Position numbers and translations under genes: made by a program. Of a stretch of DNA of 64,000 nucleotides, positions 37,582-48,383 are shown in pieces. This DNA is from Acidimicrobiia bacterium (GTDB lineage: Bacteria; Actinomycetota; Acidimicrobiia; IMCC26256; JAOSJL01). How positions within the stretch are numbered: the first letter of the stretch is position 1; every line of letters starts with the position of its first letter. The DNA lies in contig JAOSJL010000001.1 in the NCBI GenBank assembly GCA_027494115.1, positions 767,926 to 831,925 on the forward strand, written 5' to 3'. Under the pieces are notes generated by a model. The model searched no databases. It saw only the letters and a program-made list of their open reading frames with translations, and was not told where the DNA came from.

Positions 37582-38028
37582 GTGAGCTCGTCGAAACCGA
37601 TCATCGGCTGGCGCGAGTGGGTCCGGCTCGTCGACCTCGGCGGTGCACTCGTAAAGACGAAGGTCGACACGGGTGCGCGCACGTCCGCCCTTCACGCGTT
37701 CGCCCTGGAGGAGTTCGAGCGCGACGGCATTCCTCTCGCGCGCTTCGAGGTCCACCCGGTACAGCGCCGGTCGACGCCGAGCATCGCTGCCGAGATCCCG
37801 ATCACGGAGTGGCGCGAGATCCGCAACTCGGGTGGCAAGGTGGAGCGCAGACCAGTCGTGACGACGACGATTCAACTGGGTGAGAGCAGGTTTCCGATCG
37901 ACATCACCCTGACCCGACGCGACGAGATGGGGTTTCGCATGTTGTTGGGACGGCACGCCGTCCGCCGCCGCTTTCTCGTCGATCCCGGGCGATCGTTCCG
38001 GATGGGCAAGCCGGAGGGAGCGTCGTGA
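37582..38028 (+). CDS. Retropepsin-like aspartic protease (RimK-associated 'ATP-dependent zinc protease' family)
   Basis: 148 aa. [32 protein letters not shown] carries the D-T-G-A aspartyl-protease signature. 4-nt overlap with rimK. Confidence 0.72.
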
Positions 38029-38927
38029 AGATCCTCATTCTCTCCCGGAACCACAGGCTCTACTCGACACGCCGACTGGTGGAGGCGGGCGAGGAACACG
38101 GCCACGAGCTGCGGGTCGTCGACTACCTGCGCCTGTACATGAACATCACGTCACACAAGCCGGCGGTCATCTTCCGTGGTGAGCACCTCGAGCTCTACGA
38201 CGCCGTCATCCCGCGCATCGGCGCGCCGCACACTTTCTACGGCGCCGCTGTCGTCAGACAGTTCGAGATGACGGGGACACGCCCGGTCAACGAGTCGCAG
38301 GCCATCACCCGCAGCCGCGACAAACTCCGTTCACTCCAGCTCCTCGCCAGGGCCGGCGTGGGGCTCCCTGTCACGGGTTTCGCCAACTTCACCCACGACA
38401 TCGACGGCCTCATCGACGCTGTGGGAGGGACACCGGTGGTCATCAAGCTGCTGGAGGGAACCCAGGGCATGGGTGTCGTGCTGGCCGAGACGCGAAAGTC
38501 CGCCAAGGCCGTCATCGAGGCGTTCCGGCAGCTCGACGCCAACATCCTCATCCAGGAGTATGTCGAGGAGGCCGGCGGAAGCGACATCCGGGCCTTCGTG
38601 GTCGGACGGCGCGTGGTCGCCGCGATGCAACGGACCGCGCCCGAAGGCGAGTTCCGCTCGAACATCCACCGCGGAGGAAGCGTCGAGAAGGTGAAGCTCA
38701 CACCCGAGGAACGAAGCACAGCCGTACGTTCGGCGCGCACGATGGGCCTCAACGTCGCCGGCGTGGACCTGATGCGTTCGAACCACGGCCCCGTCGTACT
38801 CGAGGTGAACTCCTCGCCGGGTCTCGAGGGCGTGGAAAGCGTCACGGGAGTCGACGTGGCGGGGAAGATCATCGAGTTCATCGAACGCCAGGCGAAGCCG
38901 CCGTCCAAGAAGGGGCCGCCTGAATGA
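38025..38927 (+). CDS. rimK: RimK-type ATP-grasp alpha-L-glutamate ligase
   Basis: 300 aa. [22 protein letters not shown]..., [62 protein letters not shown]. Confidence 0.9.
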
Positions 38928-39904
38928 CCGGCTCCGAGGACGGCGCGGTATCCGCCCTGAGCTTCGGCGGGACCGAGGCACCCCTGGGACGACGCACCGA
39001 CGTCGAGCTTCCCGTCGCCCGGCTTCCCACAGGAACGTGGATGTCGCTTCCCCTCGCGGTGATCGCCGGATCCACACCGGGTCCCACCGTGTGGATCAGT
39101 GCGGCCATTCACGGCGACGAGATCAACGGCGTCGAGATCTGTCGACGTGTTCTCGAGGCTGTCGATCCGTCCTCAATGACGGGGACCCTCATCGCCGTTC
39201 CCGTGGTGAACGTCTTCGGATTCGTCGAAGGCAACCGCTACCTCCCGGACCGACGCGACCTCAACCGCTCGTTTCCCGGCTCGCGTCGTGGATCGCTCGC
39301 GTCGCAACTCGCGCATCTCCTGCTCACCGAGGTCGTCGACCGGTGCGAGCTGGGCATCGACCTCCACACCGGGTCGAACCACCGCTCGAACCTCCCTCAG
39401 ATCCGAGCGAACCTCGACGACGACCGGACACGTGAGCTCGCTGCACGATTCGGTGCACCGTTCGTTCTCCATGCCCAGACCCGCGATGGGTCGTTACGAG
39501 CGGCCGCCACGAAGCGCGGCGTTCGTGTTCTGCTCTACGAAGCTGGGGAGGCGGAGCGTTTCGACGACGACGCGATCGTCGTGGGAGCCCGCGGCGTGCT
39601 TTCGGTACTCGACGAGGTCGGACTGACGCAGGGCCTCGGCTCATCGGCTGGAAGAGTCATCGAAGCACGGCGCAGTCGGTGGCTCCGCTCACCACGCGGA
39701 GGGATTCTGCGATTGGGAGTCGACCTCGGACAAACCGTCGAACGCCACCAGACGATCGGCATCGTCAGCGACGCACTCGGAGTCGGGGAGTCGGTGATGC
39801 GCTCCCCCGTGCCGGGTCTGGTGATCAGTGCGATCCGCCACCCGCTCGTCGGCCGCGGCGACGCCGTCGTCCATGTCGCCGAGGATCCGCAAGCTCTTCG
39901 CTGA
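38924..39904 (+). CDS. Succinylglutamate desuccinylase/aspartoacylase (AstE/AspA, M14-like) family protein
   Basis: 326 aa. [14 protein letters not shown] (HxxE zinc motif), [14 protein letters not shown]. 4-nt overlap with rimK. Confidence 0.8.
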
Positions 39905-40203
39905 ACACTCCCGCCTCGGCATCCGAGTCAGAGGCCGGGACAGTGCCCGACCTCAAGTGGAACTGCGGGTCGCCCGCACGTCTTCTACTGGGACGTCCCG
40001 GGCAAGAACCTGCGCCACGGCTGGTTCGGCTGAGGAGGTCGTTCCTCCGGGAGCGGCTCGGTCTGTCGATCTTTTGGTCTTTTCTGGAACCTTTCGTGTG
40101 AGGTAGCCGTCCTATCCCCAAAGAACCTGAATCCGGACGGATCGCGCCGCCCCGCGTCTTCGCTCCGGACGAGCTCCACGCCCTGTGGAGAAAGGGAGGG
40201 ACG

Positions 40204-41511
40204 ATGAGACGGATTCGTTCGTTGGCGGCCGGGATCGCACTCGTGGCACTGGTCGCCACCGGCTGCGGCTGGCAGATCGAGGTTGTCGACGGTGCCGGAG
40301 GTGGAGGCGGTCGGACGACCGCCGACGTCGGCTCCGACGTGGCGATGGTGGGCTCACACGCCTTCTACTACGACGCCACCAACGGAAACCTGCGTCACGC
40401 GTACTACACGGTGGCCGGCTGGCAACACGAGGTTCTCGACGGTGCCGGTGGCTCGAACGGTCGGATCGACGCCGACGTCGGTTCGGGTGTCAGCGGGATG
40501 TTCGATGACACCACATTGCGCGTCTTCTACTACGACGCCACCAACGGAAACCTGCGTCAGGGCTACTTCGCGGGCGGCGTCTGGCATTTCGAGACGATCG
40601 ATGGTCAAGGTGGCGCAGGTGGCCGCGTCGACGCTGACGTCGGCATGGAGAACACCGCGACAACGCAGCTGCGCATGATCGATCCGCTTGACCCGTGGTC
40701 TGTGGAGAGGGTTCTCAACGTCTACTACCCCGACTCGGAGAACGGCGATCTCCGACTGGCGACGTATTCGGAAGGAGCCTGGGACTTCGAGACTCTGGAC
40801 GGTGCCGGTGGCTCGAACGGTCGGATCGACGCCGACGTCGGAGAGAGCGTCTCCGTGTTGGACGAGCTGTTCACGTTCCACTGGGAAGTGTTCTACTACG
40901 ACGCCACGAACGGAGACCTGCGCTACGGGCGCTACGACATCGGCACGGGGACCTGGGAGTTCCGTACCCTGGATGGCTCCGGTGGTGGGAGTGGTCGGGT
41001 CGACGGCGACGTCGGATCCGACGTGTCCGCAACGAGTCACTCGTCCGGTCCGGCGGTCTTCTACTACGACGCCACGAACGGCAACCTCCGCTCCGCGACC
41101 TGGAACGGATCGGACTTCGTGCTGACGACGCTCGACGGCGCCGGCGGCGGCGCGGGGCGCATCTCGTCTGATGTCGGATCCGCTCCCGATGTCGTGTTCA
41201 GCGGGTTCAGCGACGAACCGCTACGCGTCTTCTACTACGACGCCGGGAACCGCGACCTACGCGTCGGCGTCCACAACGGTGGTCCCTCCCTGAAATCCGG
41301 ATGGACGTTCGAGGCGGTCGACGGTCGGCTCGGGAACATCGGCGCCACGACGAACGACGTGGGCTCCAACAGCGCGGGTGCGCTCATCCAGCGACCCGGT
41401 GACTACATCGACTGGGGTCCGCAGGACCCCCACGTCCTCTACTACGACCGCACCAAAGGTGAACTGCGGCACGCGTGGAAGGGCTGCAAGATCGGTGGTT
41501 GCGCCGGCTAG
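40204..41511 (+). CDS. Seven-repeat beta-propeller-like lipoprotein (FYYDATNGNLR repeats), function unknown
   Basis: 435 aa. Signal plus lipobox LVALVATGC. Seven units of about 50-65 aa of the form [E/T]x[L/I/V]DGxGGxxGRxxxDVG...(V)FYYDxxNGxLRxxxxxxxxW. Ends ...KGCKIGGCAG. Confidence 0.75.
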   Translation: MRRIRSLAAGIALVALVATGCGWQIEVVDGAGGGGGRTTADVGSDVAMVGSHAFYYDATNGNLRHAYYTVAGWQHEVLDGAGGSNGRIDADVGSGVSGMFDDTTLRVFYYDATNGNLRQGYFAGGVWHFETIDGQGGAGGRVDADVGMENTATTQLRMIDPLDPWSVERVLNVYYPDSENGDLRLATYSEGAWDFETLDGAGGSNGRIDADVGESVSVLDELFTFHWEVFYYDATNGDLRYGRYDIGTGTWEFRTLDGSGGGSGRVDGDVGSDVSATSHSSGPAVFYYDATNGNLRSATWNGSDFVLTTLDGAGGGAGRISSDVGSAPDVVFSGFSDEPLRVFYYDAGNRDLRVGVHNGGPSLKSGWTFEAVDGRLGNIGATTNDVGSNSAGALIQRPGDYIDWGPQDPHVLYYDRTKGELRHAWKGCKIGGCAG

Positions 41512-41532
41512 GCCGCCTGCGATCCGGCGCAC

Positions 41533-41576
41533 GCGCCGTCGGCCGGGGGATGGGTTCCCTCTCCGGTCGGCGGCGC
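41533..41576. terminator. Possible stem-loop between convergent propeller gene and pilT
   Basis: GCGCCGTCGGCCGG (41533-41546) pairs with CCGGTCGGCGGCGC (41563-41576). 14 bp including two G-U pairs, 16-nt loop, no U tract. Confidence 0.3.
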
Positions 41577-41607
41577 GTCGTCGCTTCCCCGACCGCAACC
41601 GGCGCTC

Positions 41608-42714
41608 TCAGGCGCTGGTGCGCTCCCGGTCCATCGACGAGGAGATGAGGCCGGCCTGCTCGATGGCGAGGCGCAGGTCGTGGGGGTGCGACGCCATGCC
41701 GAGCGCGTCGCGCAGCGACACGAGCTCGTTCTTGAAGAGCTGGAGGATGCTCTGGTCGAAGGTCTGCATCCCGTAGTACTCGCCGTCGGCGATGACCGTC
41801 TCGATCTCGTGGGTCTGACCGGCGTTCACGATCTTGTCGAACACGCGTCCCGTGTTCACGCACACCTCCACGGCGGGCACCCGCCCCTCGGCGTCACGGC
41901 GTTCGATGAGACGCTGGCTCACGATGCCCCGCAGGGAGCCGGCGAGGGTGTGGCGGACCTGCTGCTGCTGGTGCGGCGGGAAGAACTCGATGACGCGATC
42001 GACGGACTCCTTGGCGCCGATCGTGTGCAGCGTCGAGAACACGAGGTGGCCCGTCTCTGCGGCCGACAGCGCTGCGTGAACCGTCTCGGGGTCTCGCATC
42101 TCCCCGATCAGGATCACGTCGGGGTCCTGGCGCAACACGCGCTTCAGGGCGGTGTGGAAGTCCTCGGTGTCCGTGCCGATCTCGCGCTGGTTGACGATCG
42201 AGCGCTTGTCGGGGTGGAGCACCTCGATCGGATCCTCGATCGTCACGATGTGTCGTCGCTGCGTCTCGTTGATGTGATCGACCATCGCCCCGAGGGTGGT
42301 GGTCTTTCCGGACCCCGTCGGCCCGGTGACGAGCACGAGACCGCGCGGTTCGCCGGCGAGTCGTTCGAGAACCGGCGGCATTCCCAGATCAGCAAGGCTC
42401 GGAATCCCGGTGAGAACGCGTCGCATCACGACGCCCACAGAACCGCGCTGGCGAAACACGTTCACACGGAACCGACCCATGCCTGCGACAGCGTGCGCGA
42501 AGTCGGCTTCGTTGGTGGCGTGGAACTCCTCGGCGCGCGTCGGAGGCATGATGGCGAACGCCACACGCTCGGTGTCGGCGGCTGTCATCGTGTCGAACTC
42601 CGTCGGGACGAGGTGTCCGTCAATTCGCACGTAGGGCGGCGATCCCACCTTCAGGTGGACGTCGGACGCGTCCTCCTCGATGGAGAACCGCAACAGCTGT
42701 TCGAGATCGAGCAC
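41608..42714 (-). CDS. pilT: PilT-type twitching-motility/retraction ATPase
   Basis: GTG 42714 after GGGGGAG (VLDLEQLLRFSIEEDASDVHLKVGSPP). Walker A GPTGSGKTTT, Walker B/Asp box ILIGEMRD, His box TGHLVFSTLHT. Confidence 0.85.
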   Translation of the reverse strand: MLDLEQLLRFSIEEDASDVHLKVGSPPYVRIDGHLVPTEFDTMTAADTERVAFAIMPPTRAEEFHATNEADFAHAVAGMGRFRVNVFRQRGSVGVVMRRVLTGIPSLADLGMPPVLERLAGEPRGLVLVTGPTGSGKTTTLGAMVDHINETQRRHIVTIEDPIEVLHPDKRSIVNQREIGTDTEDFHTALKRVLRQDPDVILIGEMRDPETVHAALSAAETGHLVFSTLHTIGAKESVDRVIEFFPPHQQQQVRHTLAGSLRGIVSQRLIERRDAEGRVPAVEVCVNTGRVFDKIVNAGQTHEIETVIADGEYYGMQTFDQSILQLFKNELVSLRDALGMASHPHDLRLAIEQAGLISSSMDRERTSA

Positions 42715-42796
42715 GTCTCCCCCGGGGGTCTGGGCTTCCGATGGAGTTATCGACGCCCGGCGACCCGACCTGAACCGAACGACGCGGATCTCACCA

Positions 42797-43855
42797 TTAG
42801 TGGTCGAACTTCTCAGATTCCTCACGGATCGTGGCGTGGATCCGCCGGGTGGCCTCGACCACATCTCGTCCCGGCCCACCGGTCGTGGGCGGTTCGGTTT
42901 CGGCGGGGCCACCGACATGTCCCGTTCCGATCACACGTTGCTCCGAGAGCAACGCCGCCACCGTCACGGCAGTCGACTCGACCAGCGCCTGCTCGTCGTA
43001 TCCCCCTTCGAGGAACGCCACGATCCGACCGGGTGTCCACCGAGCGACCCGCTCTGCAAGAGCGGCGAAGTCTCCCGAAGAGAGGGCGAGGCCTGTGAGT
43101 GGGTCGCGCCGATGGGCGTCGAAACCCGCGGAGACGACTGTCCAGTCGGGGGCGAACCGCTCCACCAGGGGCTCGACCACATCGTCGAAGGCGGCGAGGT
43201 ACACGTCGCCGGTGGTACCGGCGGGAACCGGAATGTTGCAGGTCGTGCCGGGCGCGTCGGGCCCGCCGGTCTCGTCGAGCCGACCCGTGTGAGGGAACAG
43301 TGGGAACTCGTGAGCGGAGACGTAGAGCACTCCGGGGTCGTTCCAGAAGAGATCCTGCGTTCCGTTTCCGTGGTGGGCGTCCCAGTCGATGATCACGACG
43401 CGCTCACCCGCTGCGCGCAGCGCCGCTGCCGTGACGGCAGCGCTGTTGACGAGACAGAAGCCGCGAGCAGTCGACGCCGAAGCGTGGTGCCCGGGTGGGC
43501 GTACGGCCAGGAACGCCGCGTCACCCCGACCTTCGCTCAACACCTCGACGGCCTCCAGCCCGGCTCCCGCCGCGTGGGTGGCGGCGGTCCAGGAATCCAC
43601 GGAGGCGACCGTGTCGGGATCGACCATTCCGCCACCCGCTTCGCAGAATCGCTCGACGGCCGCCAGGTACGTGGGATCGTGGACCCGTGCCATCTCCGCC
43701 GAAGTCGCCGCGCGGGGCTCCAGCTCGACGACGGCGTCGCGGAGCCCTGCGGCCTCGATCCCCCGGGCCACTGCCGCGAGTCTCCCGGCCCGCTCGGGAT
43801 GGCCACGACCCGTGTCGTGCGCGACGAACGACGGATCGGAGGAGACAAGCAACAC
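42797..43855 (-). CDS. Histone deacetylase family protein (AcuC/acetylpolyamine amidohydrolase-like)
   Basis: GTG 43855 (VLLVSSDPSFVAHDTG). RPPGHHA, IIDWDAHHGNGTQ, VSAGFDAH, FLEGGY motifs. Confidence 0.85.
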   Translation of the reverse strand: MLLVSSDPSFVAHDTGRGHPERAGRLAAVARGIEAAGLRDAVVELEPRAATSAEMARVHDPTYLAAVERFCEAGGGMVDPDTVASVDSWTAATHAAGAGLEAVEVLSEGRGDAAFLAVRPPGHHASASTARGFCLVNSAAVTAAALRAAGERVVIIDWDAHHGNGTQDLFWNDPGVLYVSAHEFPLFPHTGRLDETGGPDAPGTTCNIPVPAGTTGDVYLAAFDDVVEPLVERFAPDWTVVSAGFDAHRRDPLTGLALSSGDFAALAERVARWTPGRIVAFLEGGYDEQALVESTAVTVAALLSEQRVIGTGHVGGPAETEPPTTGGPGRDVVEATRRIHATIREESEKFDH

Positions 43856-43953
43856 GCTCGGAGAGTACCGCCGACGCGCAGGTACGATCGCTTCTGCGCC
43901 ACCCACGTCCCGGGGAACGCCGCGGTCCGCTCGAGACCGCGCCGAGAGCCCGC

Positions 43954-44660
43954 ATGGCGGTCCTTGCCGTGACGACACAGACACTTCGCTGGCGAGGAGG
44001 CTGGGTACGGCTCGGGGCCTGGCGTGGTGACGAGGCCCTCGCCGCCATCACCCTCGGTGCCGAGTCGCCCCCAGTATCGAGTTCGTCGAAGAGTGCGTGG
44101 AACGACTTCGCGACCTCGGCTACTCCTCTGTCATCACGAACGCTCTCACCGCGGCCGATTCCCTGCCGTTCGTGGACGCGGGGTTCCGCGTCCGCGAGCG
44201 GCTTCACCTGTTGGCCCACGACATGTCGGATCTCCCCGAGCGGACAGCGTCGACCCGTCGGGCCCGGCGGCGCGACCGGTCCACCGTCCTCGAGGTCGAC
44301 ACCGCTGCCTTCGACCCGTTCTGGCGCCTGGATGCCAGCGGACTCGACGACGCCCTTGCGGCGACGCCCGTCTCCCGGTTCCGCACATTGTGGGACAACG
44401 GGAACCTCACCGCCTACGCGATCGCCGGTCGGGCCGGTCGCCAGGGGTACATCCAACGCATCGCCGTCGATCCCGCCCGACGGCGTCGCGGTCTCGGGTC
44501 TGCTGCTGTTGCCGACGCACTGGCCTGGTTGGCTCGCCGCGGGGCGAAACGCACCGTCGTCAACACCCAGGAGAGCAACGTCGGCGCCGTGAGGCTCTAC
44601 GAGCGGTGCGGTTTCACCCTGCTACCGGTCGGACTGAGCGTTCTGGCCCGGGATCTGTGA
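43954..44660 (+). CDS. GNAT family acetyltransferase; frame broken at C5 run 44068-44072
   Basis: ATG 43954 gives MAVLAVTTQTLRWRGGWVRLGAWRGDEALAAITLGAESPP. The frame of ORF 44097..44660 continues SIEFVEECVERLRDLGYSSVITNAL...IQRIAVDPARRRRGLGSAAV...VRLYERCGF. One extra C joins them. Confidence 0.7.
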
Positions 44661-46716
44661 TGTCGCGATCCCCCCGGTCGTCCCGAGCTCTCGCCGTTCT
44701 CGGAGTTCTCGTGATGTCGGTGGTGACCACCCCGCTCACCGCCGACGCCGGCGAGCCCGCCGAGGCGTCGTCCGCGGGCACGGTCACCCTCGTGGACCAG
44801 GCCCCTGGGTGCCGCTCGGCGGCTCCACCGAGCTCGTTGTCGATCCCACGGAGACCGACGCCGATGCCGAAATCGCCGTCACGGTTCACGAGCGCCTGAA
44901 CTCCAGCATTCGCTTCGGCGAGACATTGTTCGGCGACTCGCTCGACTCCACCCTGGGTCAGGTCACGTTTCCGGTGGCCGACCTGGAGGAGACGGCAGAC
45001 GGCGTGCGGATTCCCGTCGTCCTCGATCCGGGTGTTCCGAGCTCACTCGGGTTCCCCACCATCTCCCGACGCGGGGTGTATCCGGTCGCGGTCGAGGTGC
45101 GCGACCCCTCGACCGGGGAGCCGGGCGACGGCTTCATCACCTACCTCGTGGTTGTCGACGAGGAGAACGACCCCATCGGTCAGCGTCTGCGGGTCGCCTG
45201 GATCTGGCAGATGGTGGCCGAACCCGCATTCAACGCCGACGGCACACCTGATGAACAGGTCGTGGCCGAGTTCCGCTCCGACGGCCGTCTGGGCCGGATC
45301 GCCGCGTCCATCCCCGACCCCGCGGACGTGGCCGTGACCCTGGCTCCAGGGCCGGAGACCTTCGAGGCGTGGCGTGAGCTCGCGTCGCCACCCGACCCCG
45401 GGGATCCCGACGCGACCGCGGACGCTCTCGCCGCCCGAATCGCTCCCGGTATCGACGCTGTGCAGCGCCGGGTGGACGCAGGACAAGGGCTCCTCAGCGG
45501 ACCCTTCGTGCCGGTCGACGGCCCGGCGCTGGTCGCAGCCGGGATGCACACCGAAATCCGCGAAGAGCTCATCTCGGGTGCGTTCAGCCTCGGAACGACC
45601 TTCGAGACCGGCATCGATCCGACCACGGCCTTCGCCGCTCCGCTCGACGACGAGACCGCGGCGATGCTGGCCGGCACCTCGATCGAGCAGTTGGTCGTCC
45701 GACCCGACACACTGACGTCGTTCGAGTCCGACCTCACGCCGGCGGAGCCCTTCCTTCTCGACTACGGCGACGGAACGATTCCCGCGACCGCCTCCAACGC
45801 ACCGATCCGCGAGCTCCTCGACGGTGGCGGCCCGCCTGCACTTCGGGCCCAACGGTTCGTCGCCGCCTTGTCGGTCGTGGCTCTCGAAGAGCCGAACAAC
45901 CCTCGCGGAATCGTCCTCGCGTCACCGCAACGCTGGAATCCCGATTCGGCGGCTGTCGACCGGGCCGTCGACGGCCTCGCGGACCACCCGCTGCTCGCCC
46001 CCGTCGGGATCGCTGATTACTTCGACGAGGTTCCTCTGCAACTCGGCGACAACAACGAGCCCGTCGTCCACACGCTCAAGAGCCTCGTGCCCGGATCCCC
46101 GCCCGTGACCCCGGCCGATTACCGGTCGGCGGCTTCGGACCTCGTGGGGCTCCGTTCGCTCACCTCGGCCGAGGATCCCCGAATCATCGACGGAACCCGC
46201 TCGTTGCTCGTCTCACTCACGTCCATGTGGGAGGGCGTGGGAGGCCGTGCCCGCGCACGGGAGCAGCTCGCGACCATCGACCTCGCTACCGAGGACGTCC
46301 TGTCGACGGTGAGCGCCGCCGACGACAGCACCGTCACCATCACGGCACGTCGGGCGCGGATCCCCGTCGCGTTCCAGAACGATTCGGACGAGCCCGTGCG
46401 TGTTCTCGTCAGCCTGGAAAGCGAGAAACTGTCATTCCCCGACGGGTCGGATTTCATCATCGAGCTCCCTCCCCGAAACAGCACAGAACGATTCCTCGTC
46501 GAGGCGCGCACGACGGGCACCTTCCCCATGATCCTCACGGTCTCCTCGCCTGACGGACGGTTGCAGTTCCAACGGAGCCGCCTCACCGTGCGATCGACGG
46601 CGGTGAGCGGTGCGGGCATCATCGTCACCGTCGTCGCGGCCGGATTCCTCGCCCTCTGGTGGACGATCCACATCGTGCGGGGGCGACGGGCCAAGCGGCG
46701 GGCCGTGAAATCGTGA
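44660..46716 (+). CDS. DUF6049-like secreted protein (Rv3909-position homologue); frame broken at C4 run 44802-44805
   Basis: ATG 44660 (TGATG overlap) gives a signal peptide MSRSPRSSRALAVLGVLVMSVVTTPLTADA...TLVDQAP. It continues in the frame of ORF 44809..46716 (WVPLGGSTELVVD...) and ends with a C-terminal TM GIIVTVVAAGFLALWW. Sits directly upstream of murJ. Confidence 0.65.
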
Positions 46717-48383
46717 CAGACGGTCAGCCTCCGATTCCGAGCGACCCGAGCGAATCCGACCTCGATCTCGGTGAAGGCGAGGCCTTCGCCATCGAGTCGG
46801 GTGGGCGGCGCCTCGTCCGCTCCAGCGCTGTCGTCGGTGCGGGAACGGCACTCTCGCGAGCGACCGGGATGTTGCGCGTCGGTGCGATCGCGTTCGCTCT
46901 CGGGGCGACGGCGACCGCCGACACGTTCAACATCGCCAACATGGCCCCGGCCATCGTCTACGAGCTGATCCTCGGCGGGGTTCTCTCGGCGACTCTGGTT
47001 CCGGTCTTCGTCGAGCACCTCCGCGATCCCGATGACGACGCCGCTTCGGCGGTGACGACGGTCGCGATGGTCGGCCTCGGGATTCTCGCCGTGGTGGGTG
47101 TTCTCGCTGCCCCGCTCATCATGCGCGTCCTTGCCCTCCTCGCCAGCGACGACGTCAAGGACGACCAGCTCGCCCTGGGCACGGACCTTCTTCGGCTTCT
47201 CATCCCCCAGGTTCTCTTCTTCGGCTTCGTCGCTCTCGCCTCCGCCGTGCTCAACGCCCGTCGCCGATTCGCTGCGCCGGCGTTTGTCCCCATCCTCAAC
47301 AACGTCGTCGTCATTTCCGCCTTCCTCGCGGTAGCGGCCGTGGCGGGAGGCGACGTGAGCCTCGACGCCGTGCTGAGCGACACCGGGCTGATACTGCTGA
47401 TGGGGCTCGGGACGACCGCCGGTATCGCGGCGATGGCTGTTGCGCTCTATCCGGCTCTACGGCACGCAGGCGTGCGGCTCCGACCCCTCTTCACTCTCCG
47501 ACATCCGGCTGTCCGCAAGGTCGCCCGCCTGTCGGGCTGGACGTTCGGCTATGTGCTCGCAAATCAGGCCGCGTTTCTCGTGGTTCTGATCCTGGCGTTC
47601 TCCCGTCGGGGTGAAGTATCGGCCTACCAGTACGCCTTCATCTTCTTCCAGCTCCCCCACGGCTTGTTCGCCGTGTCGATCATGACGGCGATCACGCCGG
47701 ACTTCGCTCGGTCGGCGACACGACGCGACTGGGCCGACCTGCGCAACCGTTTCTCGTACGGCATGCGTCTGATGGGTCTGCTGGTGCTCCCGACCTCGGT
47801 CGGATTCTTCGTCATCACGCGAACAGTCGATACGACGACGCTCACCTTCGGTGAGCTCTCCGCGTCATCGGCTGCGCTGACAGCTCAGACCCTGTCCGCG
47901 TTCGCTCTCGGGATGTTCGCGTTCTCGGCCTATCTGTATTCGCTGCGGGTCTTCTACGCCATGCAGGACACCCGGACGCCGTTCCTGTTGAACTGCGCCG
48001 AGAACGGTCTGAACATCGTCCTGGCGCTGGCGCTCTTCCCGTCGCTCGGCGTGCGCGGCCTGGCTCTGGCGTGGTCGATCTCCTATTGCTTCGCGACCAT
48101 GCTCACTCTCGTCGTTCTCCGGCGGCGCCTCGGCAGGCTCGATGGTGGCCGGATCCTGCACAGCCTCGGGCGCATGCTCGTCGCCTGTGCGGTGCTCGGC
48201 GTCGTGGCGTGGGCCGTCATCGACGGGCTCGGCACCGCCACGCGGGGTCGGGCTCTCGTGGTCGTCGGCCTGGCGGTGATCCTCGGCGCGGCGTCCTATT
48301 TCGCCGTCCTCGCCGCCATGCGCGTCGAGGAGATCCGAGGGATTCGGAGCCTGCTCAAGGGAAAATCCCCGCCGGTCGCGTAA
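46713..48383 (+). CDS. murJ: Lipid II flippase MurJ (MviN)
   Basis: GTG 46713 (GTGA overlap). ...LSRATGMLRVGAIAFALGATATADTFNIANMAPAIVYELILGGVLSATLVPVFV... About 14 TM segments. No fused C-terminal domain. Confidence 0.9.
   Translation: MTDGQPPIPSDPSESDLDLGEGEAFAIESGGRRLVRSSAVVGAGTALSRATGMLRVGAIAFALGATATADTFNIANMAPAIVYELILGGVLSATLVPVFVEHLRDPDDDAASAVTTVAMVGLGILAVVGVLAAPLIMRVLALLASDDVKDDQLALGTDLLRLLIPQVLFFGFVALASAVLNARRRFAAPAFVPILNNVVVISAFLAVAAVAGGDVSLDAVLSDTGLILLMGLGTTAGIAAMAVALYPALRHAGVRLRPLFTLRHPAVRKVARLSGWTFGYVLANQAAFLVVLILAFSRRGEVSAYQYAFIFFQLPHGLFAVSIMTAITPDFARSATRRDWADLRNRFSYGMRLMGLLVLPTSVGFFVITRTVDTTTLTFGELSASSAALTAQTLSAFALGMFAFSAYLYSLRVFYAMQDTRTPFLLNCAENGLNIVLALALFPSLGVRGLALAWSISYCFATMLTLVVLRRRLGRLDGGRILHSLGRMLVACAVLGVVAWAVIDGLGTATRGRALVVVGLAVILGAASYFAVLAAMRVEEIRGIRSLLKGKSPPVA

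What the first reader, a model, noticed from the sequence alone, without database searches (positions are those of the whole stretch)
40204..41511. Seven-bladed propeller-like lipoprotein built from FYYDATNGNLR repeats, with near-identical internal DNA repeats
After a lipobox (LVATGC) the protein consists of seven units with this pattern: acidic/Thr-x-hydrophobic-DG-x-GG-xx-GR-xxxDVG, a variable loop, (V)FYYDAxNGxLR, about 8 residues, then W/F.

The spacing and the aromatic and Gly pattern resemble blades of beta-propeller lectins. As I recall them, the fucose-binding and PLL-like families have repeats of the type 'h-h-Y-x-x-x-x-G-x-h-x-x-x-x-W-x-x-x-x-W'. I cannot assign it to a named family.

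At the DNA level, blades share perfectly identical stretches. A 44-nt segment occurs at 40438-40481 and again at 40799-40842. A 35-nt segment occurs at 40363-40397 and again at 40526-40560. This implies recent intragenic duplication or gene conversion, and potential for blade-number variation.

The protein ends with a Cys-x4-Cys motif (KGCKIGGCAG).
Basis: partly seen in the sequence, partly recalled or inferred. Interest (0 to 1): 0.55.

Follow-up and report, generated by a model that had tools for sequence, protein, structure and literature searches.

The report
Lipid-anchored seven-bladed lectin-like propeller
This gene encodes a membrane-anchored, seven-bladed ring-shaped protein from a large unnamed family that resembles sugar-binding lectins and is often attached to cell-wall-cutting enzymes, so it most likely binds the bacterial cell wall; this has not been tested.

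Summary
ORF 40204-41511 (+) encodes a 435-aa protein with a lipoprotein signal (Cys21) and seven repeats. AlphaFold2 models it as 28 strands, i.e. 7 blades of 4 (pLDDT 91.9, pTM 0.90).

No Pfam or NCBIfam model matches. The protein belongs to a large uncurated family (3,268 cluster representatives at E<=1e-3). Its blade is distantly related to RSL/AAL-type and PLL (DUF346)-type lectin blades, but it fails the membership tests for both; the RSL Arg/Glu fucose dyad is absent.

Relatives carry the propeller C-terminal to CHAP, M23, Amidase_2, LmbE and a probably lysozyme-like domain. All members examined that carry a recognisable N-terminal signal are exported. Conservation repeats in every blade. 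The best reading is a multivalent cell-wall glycan-binding module, here stand-alone and lipid-anchored (inferred, not shown).

Blade-number variation is not supported. What varies is gene copy number at a conserved AstE/PilT-like slot: 1 copy here, 2 in another Acidimicrobiia genome and about 13 in a close relative. A relic of a lost paralogue lies at 39968-40033.

The parts
39968..40033 (+). Relic 3' end of a lost array-type paralogue. It reads GRPHVFYWDVPGKNLRHGWFG* and lies in the AstE-propeller 'intergenic' gap.
   Evidence: Frame-0 translation of 39905-40203 and blastn matches to the 3' ends of paralogues in L001, L002, L003 and L006. Sequence and comparison with paralogue C-termini such as P0017 ...GQPHVFYWDAPGGDLRHGWFG.
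40194..40199 (+). Shine-Dalgarno-like GGGAGG, 4 nt upstream of the ATG
   Evidence: Read directly from the sequence
40204..40263 (+). Signal peptide (aa 1-20: MRRIRSLAAGIALVALVATG), with a positively charged n-region and a hydrophobic h-region
   Evidence: Sequence. AF2 models it as a detached low-confidence helix 2-17. Same design in paralogues.
40255..40266 (+). Lipobox A-T-G-C with Cys21 as the predicted lipidated first residue of the mature protein
   Evidence: Sequence. The '...ATGC-x-W-x-FETLDG' arrangement is conserved in P0005, P0007, P0009, P0017, P0032, P0044, P0066, P0086 and the L001 orthologue.
40270..40419 (+). Repeat 1 (aa 23-72)
   Evidence: Motif positions; AF2 strands E22-29, 42-49, 52-57, 62-69
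40420..40581 (+). Repeat 2 (aa 73-126). Holds copy 1 of the 44-nt exact repeat (40438-40481) and copy 2 of the 36-nt exact repeat (40524-40559).
40582..40779 (+). Repeat 3 (aa 127-192). Long divergent loop; YYP in place of YYD.
   Evidence: This loop is the most divergent part against the orthologue.
40780..40953 (+). Repeat 4 (aa 193-250). Holds copy 2 of the 44-nt exact repeat (40798-40841).
40954..41115 (+). Repeat 5 (aa 251-304)
41116..41301 (+). Repeat 6 (aa 305-366). Starts with F, not W.
41302..41484 (+). Repeat 7 (aa 367-427). The most divergent repeat; it lacks the GR motif.
41485..41511 (+). C-terminal tail CKIGGCAG (Cys428...Cys433) plus the stop codon. Modelled with low confidence.
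   Evidence: Sequence. Conserved as CQIGGCSG in the orthologue only. pLDDT of the last block is 43.
40362..40397 (+). Copy 1 of the 36-nt exact repeat (encodes FYYDATNGNLR of repeat 1)

Best explanation
The gene encodes an exported protein that is probably lipid-anchored at Cys21. The whole mature part is a closed seven-bladed beta-propeller. It belongs to a large, uncurated family whose blade is a distant relative of the blades of RSL/AAL-type and PLL (DUF346)-type lectins.

Most likely it is a multivalent glycan-binding module aimed at the cell envelope, i.e. peptidoglycan or a wall-associated polysaccharide. Each blade contributes an equivalent site. That site is built from the conserved long loop (G-G-x-x-G-R-x-x-x-D-V-G), the Y-Y-D...L-R hairpin on the same face, and the conserved aromatic residues.

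In relatives the same module sits C-terminal to wall hydrolases and would hold them on the wall. In this protein it stands alone, tethered to the outer face of the membrane, where it would bind wall glycan next to the membrane.

Shown: the ORF, the repeats, the lipobox pattern and its conservation, the confident propeller model, the family size, the domain fusions, the export signals and the symmetric conservation.

Inferred: lipidation, glycan binding, the identity of the ligand and the location of the site.
For: Fold: AF2 pLDDT 91.9, pTM 0.90, 28 strands.

Lectin relationship:
- The family profile hits only RSL in the PDB (E=2e-7).
- Foldseek's top hits are RSL (E=2e-9, 17-19% identity).
- DUF346 (the PLL repeat, PMC10481521) weakly hits 7/60 and 4/65 relatives.
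- Single-blade hhalign scores are 18.2 against PLL (null 8.9+/-2.1; 1 of 200 shuffles reach it) and 19.1 against RSL (null 8.7+/-2.2; 0 of 200).

Wall link:
- In the top 120 homologues the precomputed Pfam domains include CHAP (15), M23 (4), Amidase_2 (2) and PIG-L/LmbE (4).
- In 65 further multidomain representatives: CHAP 9, PIG-L 4, Amidase_2 2, M23 1, cutinase 2, subtilase 3.
- About a dozen 'no-Pfam' fusions share an N-terminal module whose best fold matches are almost all lysozyme-like peptidoglycan glycosidases.
- In the fusions the propeller is always C-terminal to the enzyme.

Export: among the complete ~400-aa stand-alone members, about 30 have either a lipobox or a cleavable signal peptide, and the mature protein starts at blade 1. 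Two begin directly at blade 1 with no signal (P0024, P0051), and several longer members show none in their first 45 residues.

Binder, not enzyme: every column of the family alignment conserved at >=90% is a repeated motif position.

Binding face: among paralogues of one genome the scaffold is invariant, and variation is concentrated in the long loop and the YxD...LR hairpin. These alternate with two tight turns and so lie on the same face.
Against: - No binding data exist for any member.
- The query itself has no enzyme partner and no conserved functional neighbour.
- The RSL/BambL fucose-binding Arg and Glu (PMC5478714) are not conserved, so the chemistry of the site cannot be transferred from that family.
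- The query is a divergent member. The His of L-R-H is kept in only 2 of 7 blades, and the following aromatic residue is often lost, so some or all of its sites may be degenerate.
- Some fusion partners (subtilase, cutinase, PKD/Ig domains) do not act on the wall.
- No phage endolysin carries the module.
- I had no model coordinates, so the position of the conserved loop relative to the inter-blade pockets is deduced from strand order alone.
Confidence: 0.5

Rival explanations
1. It is a true lectin of the RSL/PLL type, directed at foreign glycans (fucose, O-methylated sugars and the like) on other organisms. It would serve adhesion or inter-organism recognition, not binding of the producer's own wall.
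For: The closest solved structures by sequence and by fold are fucose lectins. Seven blades and the L-[WR]-H-x-W ... W-x-[WF]-[QE]-[ST]-L-[GD]-G motif parallel PLL. Hypervariable same-face loops and tandem paralogue arrays fit diversification towards varied external ligands.
Against: The Arg/Glu fucose dyad of the RSL/AAL family aligns to Phe/His (alignment; PMC5478714). No Pfam lectin model reaches significance on the query. The dominant fusion partners are peptidoglycan hydrolases and a GlcNAc-deacetylase-type domain. A lipid anchor places the protein under or within the wall of a monoderm cell, which is a poor place to reach other cells.
Confidence: 0.2
2. It is a protein-protein interaction scaffold of the cell envelope, like other lipoprotein propellers (for example BamB-type). 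It would organise or regulate envelope enzymes and would not bind carbohydrate.
For: Propellers are common protein-binding platforms, and variable loops on one face are typical of such platforms. The gene lies a few kb from DUF6049 and MurJ envelope genes. Foldseek also returns many non-lectin propellers.
Against: No partner gene is conserved next to homologues in unrelated genomes. Sevenfold-symmetric conservation of polar and aromatic residues is more typical of multivalent lectins. Attachment to several unrelated secreted hydrolase classes is the behaviour of a substrate-targeting module.
Confidence: 0.15
3. It is an enzyme with a propeller fold, for example a sialidase- or glycosidase-like or lactonase-like protein.
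For: Six-bladed sialidases are among the best Foldseek matches (E about 1e-8). BNR_4 hits occur in 2 of 65 relatives.
Against: Sequence identity to the sialidases is 10-13% and TM-scores are 0.40-0.53. There is no Asp-box (S-x-D-x-G-x-T-W). No blade-specific conserved residues exist that could form a single active site. No Pfam enzyme family matches.
Confidence: 0.05

Closest known systems
PLL-family seven-bladed propeller lectins of Photorhabdus (PLL, PLL2-5, PHL; Pfam DUF346/PF03984; PDB 5c9l, 6rfz, 6t96, 5mxe)
   Same: A single chain of seven four-stranded blades of about 48-54 residues. The motif logic is parallel: PLL 'G-R-L-E-V-F-A-R-G-T-D-N-A-L-W-H-I-W ... W-S-x-W-Q-S-L-G-G' against this family's 'P-H-V-F-Y-Y-D-x-T-x-G-x-L-R-H-A-W ... 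W-x-F-E-T-L-D-G'. The DUF346 model weakly hits 11 of 125 relatives. In PLL lectins the sugar sites lie between adjacent blades (PMC6943638).
   Different: The query does not match DUF346 at all. hhalign gives only E 0.0014-0.019. PLL/PHL chains are not among the top 50 Foldseek hits. This family has a conserved insertion of about 10-12 residues (G-G-x-x-G-R-x-x-x-D) after the L-D-G strand. Most members examined carry an export signal (lipobox or signal peptide), and the family is frequently fused to wall hydrolases.
RSL / BambL / AAL six-bladed fucose lectins (PDB 4csd, 7e7n-7e7w; Pfam Fungal_lectin PF07938)
   Same: Best PDB match both by sequence profile (E=2e-7) and by Foldseek (E=2e-9). 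The blade register is shared, including the (W/Y)-[DN]-G-x-x-W spacing. The single-blade profile score exceeds all 200 shuffles.
   Different: RSL has six blades (built as a trimer of two-blade chains, or engineered as a single chain) of about 45 residues, against seven blades of 50-69 residues here. The fucose-binding Arg and Glu (Arg15/Glu26 in BambL, PMC5478714; Arg17/Glu28 in RSL) align to Phe and His in the family and to variable residues in the query. There is no Pfam PF07938 hit on the query.
Cell-wall-binding modules of peptidoglycan hydrolases (LysM, SH3b, choline-binding repeats, PG_binding_1) - a functional analogy, from general knowledge
   Same: A repetitive, non-catalytic extracytoplasmic module found C-terminal to CHAP, M23, Amidase_2 and lysozyme-like domains. 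It also occurs as stand-alone exported proteins.
   Different: The fold is unrelated (a closed seven-bladed propeller). Wall binding has not been demonstrated for any member.
Propeller platform domain of the Staphylococcus phage phi11 receptor-binding protein Gp45, which recognises GlcNAc on wall teichoic acid (PMC4876445 surfaced; details from general knowledge)
   Same: A precedent for a beta-propeller that recognises a Gram-positive wall glycopolymer.
   Different: It has five blades, is a phage baseplate protein, and no sequence relationship was detected. No phage record matches this family.

Membership tests
RSL/BambL/AAL fucose-binding propeller lectins | Six blades of about 45 residues (trimer of two-blade chains, or one six-blade chain) | tested here: not met
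   Seven blades of 50-69 residues in one chain: 28 strands in the AF2 model and seven motif sets.
RSL/BambL/AAL fucose-binding propeller lectins | Fucose pocket made of an Arg guanidinium, a Glu carboxylate, a Trp indole NH and a stacking Trp (PMC5478714) | tested here: not met
   In the profile-to-RSL alignment, Arg17 aligns to the Phe of V-F-Y-Y. Glu28 aligns to the His of L-R-H, which is H/Q/L/Y/S/V/H across the query's seven blades. Only the two aromatic positions are partly kept (W/Y ... W).
RSL/BambL/AAL fucose-binding propeller lectins | Significant match to the family's sequence model | tested here: inconclusive
   No PF07938 hit on the query at E<=10. One paralogue in L001 has a 'faint' PF07938 hit. 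The family profile hits single-chain RSL at E=2e-7 summed over repeats. hhalign gives E=6e-4 to 1.3e-3 at low probability.
PLL-family lectins (DUF346, PF03984) | Seven-bladed single-chain propeller | tested here: met
   AF2 model.
PLL-family lectins (DUF346, PF03984) | Match to Pfam DUF346 above the gathering threshold | tested here: not met
   No DUF346 hit on the query even at E<=10. Only weak hits were found in relatives: best E=5.7e-7, in 7/60 and 4/65.
PLL-family lectins (DUF346, PF03984) | Trp-lined polar and hydrophobic sugar sites between adjacent blades (PMC6943638) | tested here: inconclusive
   The family consensus keeps L-R-H-A-W-W ... W, parallel to PLL's L-W-H-I-W ... W-x-x-W. 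The query keeps the first Trp of each blade in 6 of 7 blades but mostly loses the H-A-W positions. No coordinates were available to inspect pockets.
PLL-family lectins (DUF346, PF03984) | Binding of L-fucose or O-methylated sugars | not testable with these tools
   Needs a glycan array, ITC or SPR on recombinant protein.
Bacterial lipoproteins (Lgt/LspA substrates) | N-terminal signal peptide ending in a lipobox [LVI][ASTVI][GAS]-C. The PROSITE PS51257-type pattern is quoted from memory. | tested here: met
   MRRIR (positive) + SLAAGIALVAL (hydrophobic) + V-A-T-G-C21. The weak NCBIfam LptM signal-peptide hit reflects the same feature.
Bacterial lipoproteins (Lgt/LspA substrates) | The lipobox Cys is conserved in relatives at the start of the mature domain | tested here: met
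   'ATGC-x-W-x-FETLDG' is present in the orthologue and in P0005, P0007, P0009, P0017, P0032, P0044, P0066 and P0086. Another subgroup uses a cleavable A-x-A signal peptide in its place.
Bacterial lipoproteins (Lgt/LspA substrates) | Actual diacylglyceryl modification and signal peptidase II cleavage | not testable with these tools
   Needs lipid labelling, globomycin sensitivity or mass spectrometry.
Cell-wall-targeting modules of peptidoglycan hydrolases (functional class) | Recurrent fusion to peptidoglycan-hydrolase catalytic domains in exported proteins | tested here: met
   Met for the family, not for the query itself. CHAP, M23, Amidase_2, PIG-L and a lysozyme-like module lie N-terminal to the propeller.
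Cell-wall-targeting modules of peptidoglycan hydrolases (functional class) | Direct binding to peptidoglycan or a wall polymer | not testable with these tools
   Needs sacculus pull-down or fluorescent-fusion labelling.
Sialidase / BNR (Asp-box) propellers | Asp-box S-x-D-x-G-x-T-W repeats and an asymmetric catalytic site | tested here: not met
   No Asp-box in the sequence. No BNR or sialidase Pfam hit on the query. Conservation is the same in every blade. The Foldseek similarity is fold-level only (10-13% identity).

The most novel reading that the evidence does not exclude
The family is a previously unrecognised class of wall-glycan recognition modules. The hypervariable tandem arrays of lipid-anchored stand-alone copies (1 to about 13 genes at one chromosomal slot in closely related Acidimicrobiia) would then be a diversifying surface repertoire. 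One possibility is that they act as decoys or competitors that occupy wall sites otherwise targeted by propeller-bearing lytic enzymes of rivals or epibionts, since CHAP-propeller fusions occur in Saccharibacteria. Another is that they sense different wall or foreign glycans.
Probability: 0.1. Interest if true: 0.75.

Novelty: new variant of a known kind. Interest (0 to 1): 0.45.

Why it matters
If the inference is right, this family is a widespread cell-wall-binding domain that no curated database names. It has over 3,000 clusters at 50% identity across Actinomycetota, Saccharibacteria and other phyla.

Naming it would improve the annotation of many 'hypothetical' autolysins and lytic enzymes. 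It would also give protein engineers a new targeting module for lysins against Actinobacteria.

It would extend the RSL/PLL lectin-propeller lineage to a third branch with a different site architecture.

The copy-number-variable lipoprotein array offers a tractable case of rapid gene-family turnover at a fixed chromosomal slot in an uncultured lineage.

Tried and rejected
- Blade-number variation: the closest homologue, P0002, is only 278 aa, but the DNA shows a 1-nt insertion that splits a complete seven-blade orthologue into 134-aa and 278-aa gene calls. Rejected.
- The genome-contig scan failed with the broad alignment. With a narrower one it returned only 4 loci, so there is no taxonomic survey.
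- Phage link: no tblastn hit in 50,697 phage records. PHROGs gave no hit for the query and only weak hits (E 1.6e-5 to 6e-3) to families of unknown function for P0009. BFVD returned generic propellers only.
- Defence systems: no PADLOC hit.
- Regulatory RNA: no Rfam match in 39700-41800. No sigma-70-like promoter or intrinsic terminator was found by the simple scans.
- Operon partner: the neighbours (Zn-protease/RimK/AstE upstream; PilT-like ATPase, deacetylase, GNAT, DUF6049 and MurJ downstream) are conserved but functionally unconnected. Homologues in other genomes have different neighbours.
- The 2026 Esr preprint on surface propellers of oral Actinobacteria concerns WD40-class domains and is unrelated.
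- My dN/dS value for the PilT-like gene was mis-registered and is discarded.
- Enzyme reading (sialidase-like): rejected on symmetric conservation and the absence of motifs.
Full report
1. THE OBSERVATION

The ORF at 40204-41511 (+) is real and encodes 435 aa. The exact protein is on record as a hypothetical protein of an Acidimicrobiia MAG on a 3.0-Mb contig. The window is 67% G+C. A GGGAGG Shine-Dalgarno-like motif lies 4 nt before the ATG.

The N-terminus MRRIRSLAAGIALVALVATG-C21 has a charged n-region, a hydrophobic core and a lipobox. After it come seven repeats, each with D-G-x-G-G...G-R...D-V-G and (V)F-Y-Y-D-x-x-x-G-x-L-R. The protein ends in C-K-I-G-G-C-A-G.

The 44-nt repeat is 40438-40481 = 40798-40841, and the other repeat is 36 nt, 40362-40397 = 40524-40559. 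Under the codon usage of ten neighbouring genes, the chance that identical peptides use identical codons throughout is 1.5e-6 for the 44-nt tract and about 1e-3 for the other. The first is not chance; the second is marginal.

The blades as a whole are only 24-63% identical in protein. Over all blade pairs, identical amino acids use identical codons 300 times against 241 expected, and the excess sits in pairs 1-2, 2-4, 1-4 and 1-7. This pattern fits short-tract intragenic gene conversion, or retention of a partial duplication. It is not a recently amplified propeller.

2. WHAT IT IS

Pfam, NCBIfam, PHROGs and PADLOC give no match. AlphaFold2 with a 60-sequence alignment gives a confident single domain: pLDDT 91.9, pTM 0.90. 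It has exactly 28 strands in seven groups of four. The signal peptide is modelled as a detached low-confidence helix and the last four residues are disordered.

Homologues are numerous. The word-indexed search found 677 or more. The exhaustive search found 3,268 cluster representatives at E<=1e-3 and 1,109 at E<=1e-10.

From 235 blades, the family blade consensus is W-x-F-E-T-L-D-G-x-G-G-x-x-G-R-x-x-x-D-V-G-(x4)-A-V-L-Y-x-G-x-P-H-V-F-Y-Y-D-x-T-x-G-x-L-R-H-A-W-W-x-G. The W, D and G that open the blade were used to cut the blades, so their 99-100% conservation is partly by construction.

The query is a divergent member. It keeps D-G and D-V-G in 7 of 7 blades, L-R in 7 of 7, and G-R and Y-Y-D in 6 of 7. 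It keeps the His of L-R-H in only 2 of 7, and it has long extra loops in blades 3, 4, 6 and 7.

3. RELATIONSHIP TO KNOWN LECTINS

The only PDB sequences that match are single-chain versions of the Ralstonia fucose lectin RSL. The match is E about 0.1 with the query alone and E=2e-7 with the family profile. RSL is also the best Foldseek hit (E=2e-9, 17-19% identity), followed by six-bladed sialidases at 10-13% identity.

Pfam DUF346 is the repeat of the seven-bladed Photorhabdus PLL lectins (PMC10481521; PMC6943638). It weakly matches 7 of 60 and 4 of 65 relatives but not the query.

I reconstructed the PLL2 and PLL3 sequences from printed PDB alignments. Whole-protein hhalign comparisons are in blade register but weak: E=0.019 against PLL2 and 0.0013 against RSL. 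Single-blade profile comparisons score 18.2 against PLL blades and 19.1 against RSL blades. Column-shuffled nulls are 8.9+/-2.1 (1 of 200 reach the observed score) and 8.7+/-2.2 (0 of 200).

The blade is therefore a distant relative of both lectin blade types, about equally. The family is a member of neither:
- It has seven blades, not six, against RSL.
- The query gives no DUF346 hit.
- The residues that bind fucose in the RSL/BambL/AAL family (Arg, Glu; PMC5478714) align to Phe and His/variable residues.
- This family has a conserved extra loop of about 10-12 residues, G-G-x-x-G-R-x-x-x-D, that PLL and RSL lack.

4. EVIDENCE BEARING ON FUNCTION

(a) Location. Among the complete ~400-aa stand-alone relatives, about 30 have either a lipobox ('...A-T-G-C-x-W-x-F-E-T-L-D-G') or a cleavable signal peptide ('...A-G-A-A-x-W-x-F-E-T-L-D-G'), so the mature protein begins at blade 1. 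Two (P0024, P0051) begin directly at blade 1 with no signal, and several longer members show none in their first 45 residues.

(b) Fusions. In longer relatives the propeller is C-terminal to secreted enzymes.
- Among the top 120 hits, precomputed Pfam domains include CHAP (15), M23 (4), Amidase_2 (2) and PIG-L/LmbE (4), plus Ig-like domains.
- Among 65 further representatives: CHAP 9, PIG-L 4, subtilase 3, Amidase_2 2, cutinase 2, M23 1.
- A Streptomyces member matches NCBIfam peptidoglycan-hydrolase models in its N-terminal part.
- About a dozen fusions with no Pfam hit share an N-terminal module of about 225 aa (G-R-I-I-D-D ... L-Q-K-E-x-G-L ... Y-T-P-Y-Q-P-N ... N-W-F-G). It has no match in Pfam, NCBIfam or the PDB sequences.
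- The AF2 model of that module is of moderate confidence (pLDDT 75, pTM 0.77). Its Foldseek matches are individually insignificant (E>=0.08). They are nonetheless almost all lysozyme-like peptidoglycan glycosidases: AtlE, LytB, the C. perfringens autolysin, g-type lysozyme, MltE/MltF and Tse3.

(c) Symmetry. Every column conserved at >=90% in the family alignment is a repeated motif position. Nothing is conserved in one blade only. This argues for a multivalent binder and against an enzyme.

(d) Variable face. Among six paralogues of one genome (50-64% identical), the strands and the two tight turns (N-G-R-P and N-G-x-x-W) are nearly invariant. Variation is concentrated in the long loop after L-D-G and in the Y-x-D...L-R hairpin. 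In a four-strand meander consecutive loops alternate faces (strand order), so these two variable loops lie on the same face of the ring. This is deduced from topology; I had no coordinates.

(e) Negative results. There is no conserved operon partner, no phage homologue, no riboswitch, and no promoter or terminator match by the simple scans.

5. MOST LIKELY MECHANISM

The protein is exported and lipidated at Cys21 (inferred from the pattern and its conservation). It is held on the outer face of the membrane. There, a seven-bladed ring presents up to seven similar sites that bind a repeating glycan of the envelope, either peptidoglycan or a wall polysaccharide. The sites would be built from the conserved Arg/Asp loop, the neighbouring hairpin and aromatic residues.

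In relatives the same module would keep lytic enzymes on the wall. I put this reading at about 0.5. The rivals are:
- a lectin for foreign glycans (0.2);
- a protein-binding envelope scaffold (0.15);
- an enzyme (0.05).

6. THE LOCUS IS MORE DYNAMIC THAN THE GENE

The apparent short orthologue P0002 (278 aa) is an artefact. The orthologous gene in a related MAG (L001 7532-8837, 87.5% nucleotide identity) has a 1-nt insertion that splits it into two gene calls. It still has seven blades and the C-x4-C tail. In that orthologue the blade 2 and blade 4 tracts are 41/44 identical, so the similarity predates the split of the two lineages.

What varies is gene copy number. The slot between AstE and the PilT-like ATPase is conserved in three Acidimicrobiia genomes. 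It holds:
- one propeller gene in this window;
- two plus a fragment in L006;
- about twelve tandem paralogues plus the orthologue in the close relative.

The close relative's downstream genes are 95-99.5% identical in protein to those of the window.

The window's AstE-propeller gap still contains the last 21 codons and the stop codon of an array-type paralogue at 39968-40033: GRPHVFYWDVPGKNLRHGWFG*. An array was therefore lost or collapsed here.

The surviving gene has diverged faster than its downstream neighbours at both kinds of site. Its dN is 0.091 and dS 0.29, against dN 0.005-0.023 and dS 0.08-0.10 for the neighbours. Nucleotide identity to the relative steps from about 80% upstream, through 87% in the gene, to about 94% downstream. 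This suggests a recombination boundary or conversion from paralogues.

7. NOVELTY AND VERDICT

The fold and the general idea of a lectin-like propeller are known. This family, however, is uncurated and I found no description of it in five literature searches. It fails the membership tests of its two nearest lectin families, has its own conserved loop, and has a distinctive association with wall hydrolases and with lipoprotein arrays.

I rate it a new variant of a known kind, of moderate interest (0.45). The structure-level claims are solid. The ligand and the role are inference.

Noticed in passing
window 39968-40033 (+): The 'intergenic' gap between AstE and the propeller gene encodes GRPHVFYWDVPGKNLRHGWFG*. 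This is the last 21 codons plus stop of an array-type propeller paralogue, i.e. a relic of a deleted or collapsed tandem array.
   Followed up: yes
L003 1550-8950, L002 2-7080, L001 58-6306 (contig CAVPGR010000004.1): A close relative carries about 12 tandem ~400-aa propeller lipoprotein paralogues (50-64% identical to each other) between AstE and the orthologue of the window gene. The window has one copy. The downstream flanking proteins are 95-99.5% identical between the two genomes.
   Followed up: yes
L006 3828-7218: A third Acidimicrobiia genome (GCA_041394025.1) has two full propeller genes plus a 138-aa fragment in the same AstE/PilT-like slot. It also has an ABC transporter pair inserted before the PilT-like gene.
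   Followed up: partly
P0003 residues 31-256, and the same region of P0015, P0018, P0025, P0046, P0048, P0107, P0129, P0152, P0167, P0178: An uncurated N-terminal module of about 225 aa (GRIIDD...LQKE-x-GL...YTPYQPN...NWFG), fused to the propeller, has no Pfam, NCBIfam or PDB sequence match. Its AF2 model (pLDDT 75) gives weak Foldseek hits that are almost all lysozyme-like peptidoglycan glycosidases. It is a candidate new muramidase/glucosaminidase family.
   Followed up: partly
window 38412-47000 against L003/L001: Nucleotide identity to the relative changes stepwise across the locus: about 80% over RimK/AstE, 87% over the propeller gene and about 94% downstream. dS of the propeller gene is three times that of its downstream neighbours. 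This suggests a recombination breakpoint or conversion from paralogues; a chimeric MAG cannot be excluded.
   Followed up: partly
L001 7532-8837 and L001 2547-3748: The orthologue, and one array paralogue, are each split into two gene calls by an indel (134+278 aa and 281+134 aa). On a 1.75-Mb MAG contig this may be assembly error and not pseudogenisation.
   Followed up: partly
L001 6420-7339: An XRE-type HTH gene (120 aa) and a 185-aa gene with no Pfam hit sit between the array and the orthologue in the relative. They are absent from the window.
   Followed up: no
P0114, P0135, P0139, P0184, P0193 (N-terminal ~265 aa): Another group of fusions starts 'M-P/S-T-x-(F/I/V)-(H/F)-G-P-F-x-V' with no obvious signal peptide and no Pfam domain before the propeller. 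The N-terminal domain is unidentified.
   Followed up: no
window 37582-39904 (+) and 41608-42918 (-): Upstream is a RimK ATP-grasp / RimB-like Zn-protease / AstE-AspA-like deacylase gene trio with overlapping stop and start codons. Downstream, convergent, is a lone PilT-like T2SSE ATPase with no other pilus genes nearby.
   Followed up: no
window 41485-41508 (+): The C-terminal C-K-I-G-G-C-A-G tail (a possible small disulfide loop) is conserved only in the orthologue (C-Q-I-G-G-C-S-G). Array paralogues end in ...L-R-H-x-(W/Y)-F-G.
   Followed up: partly
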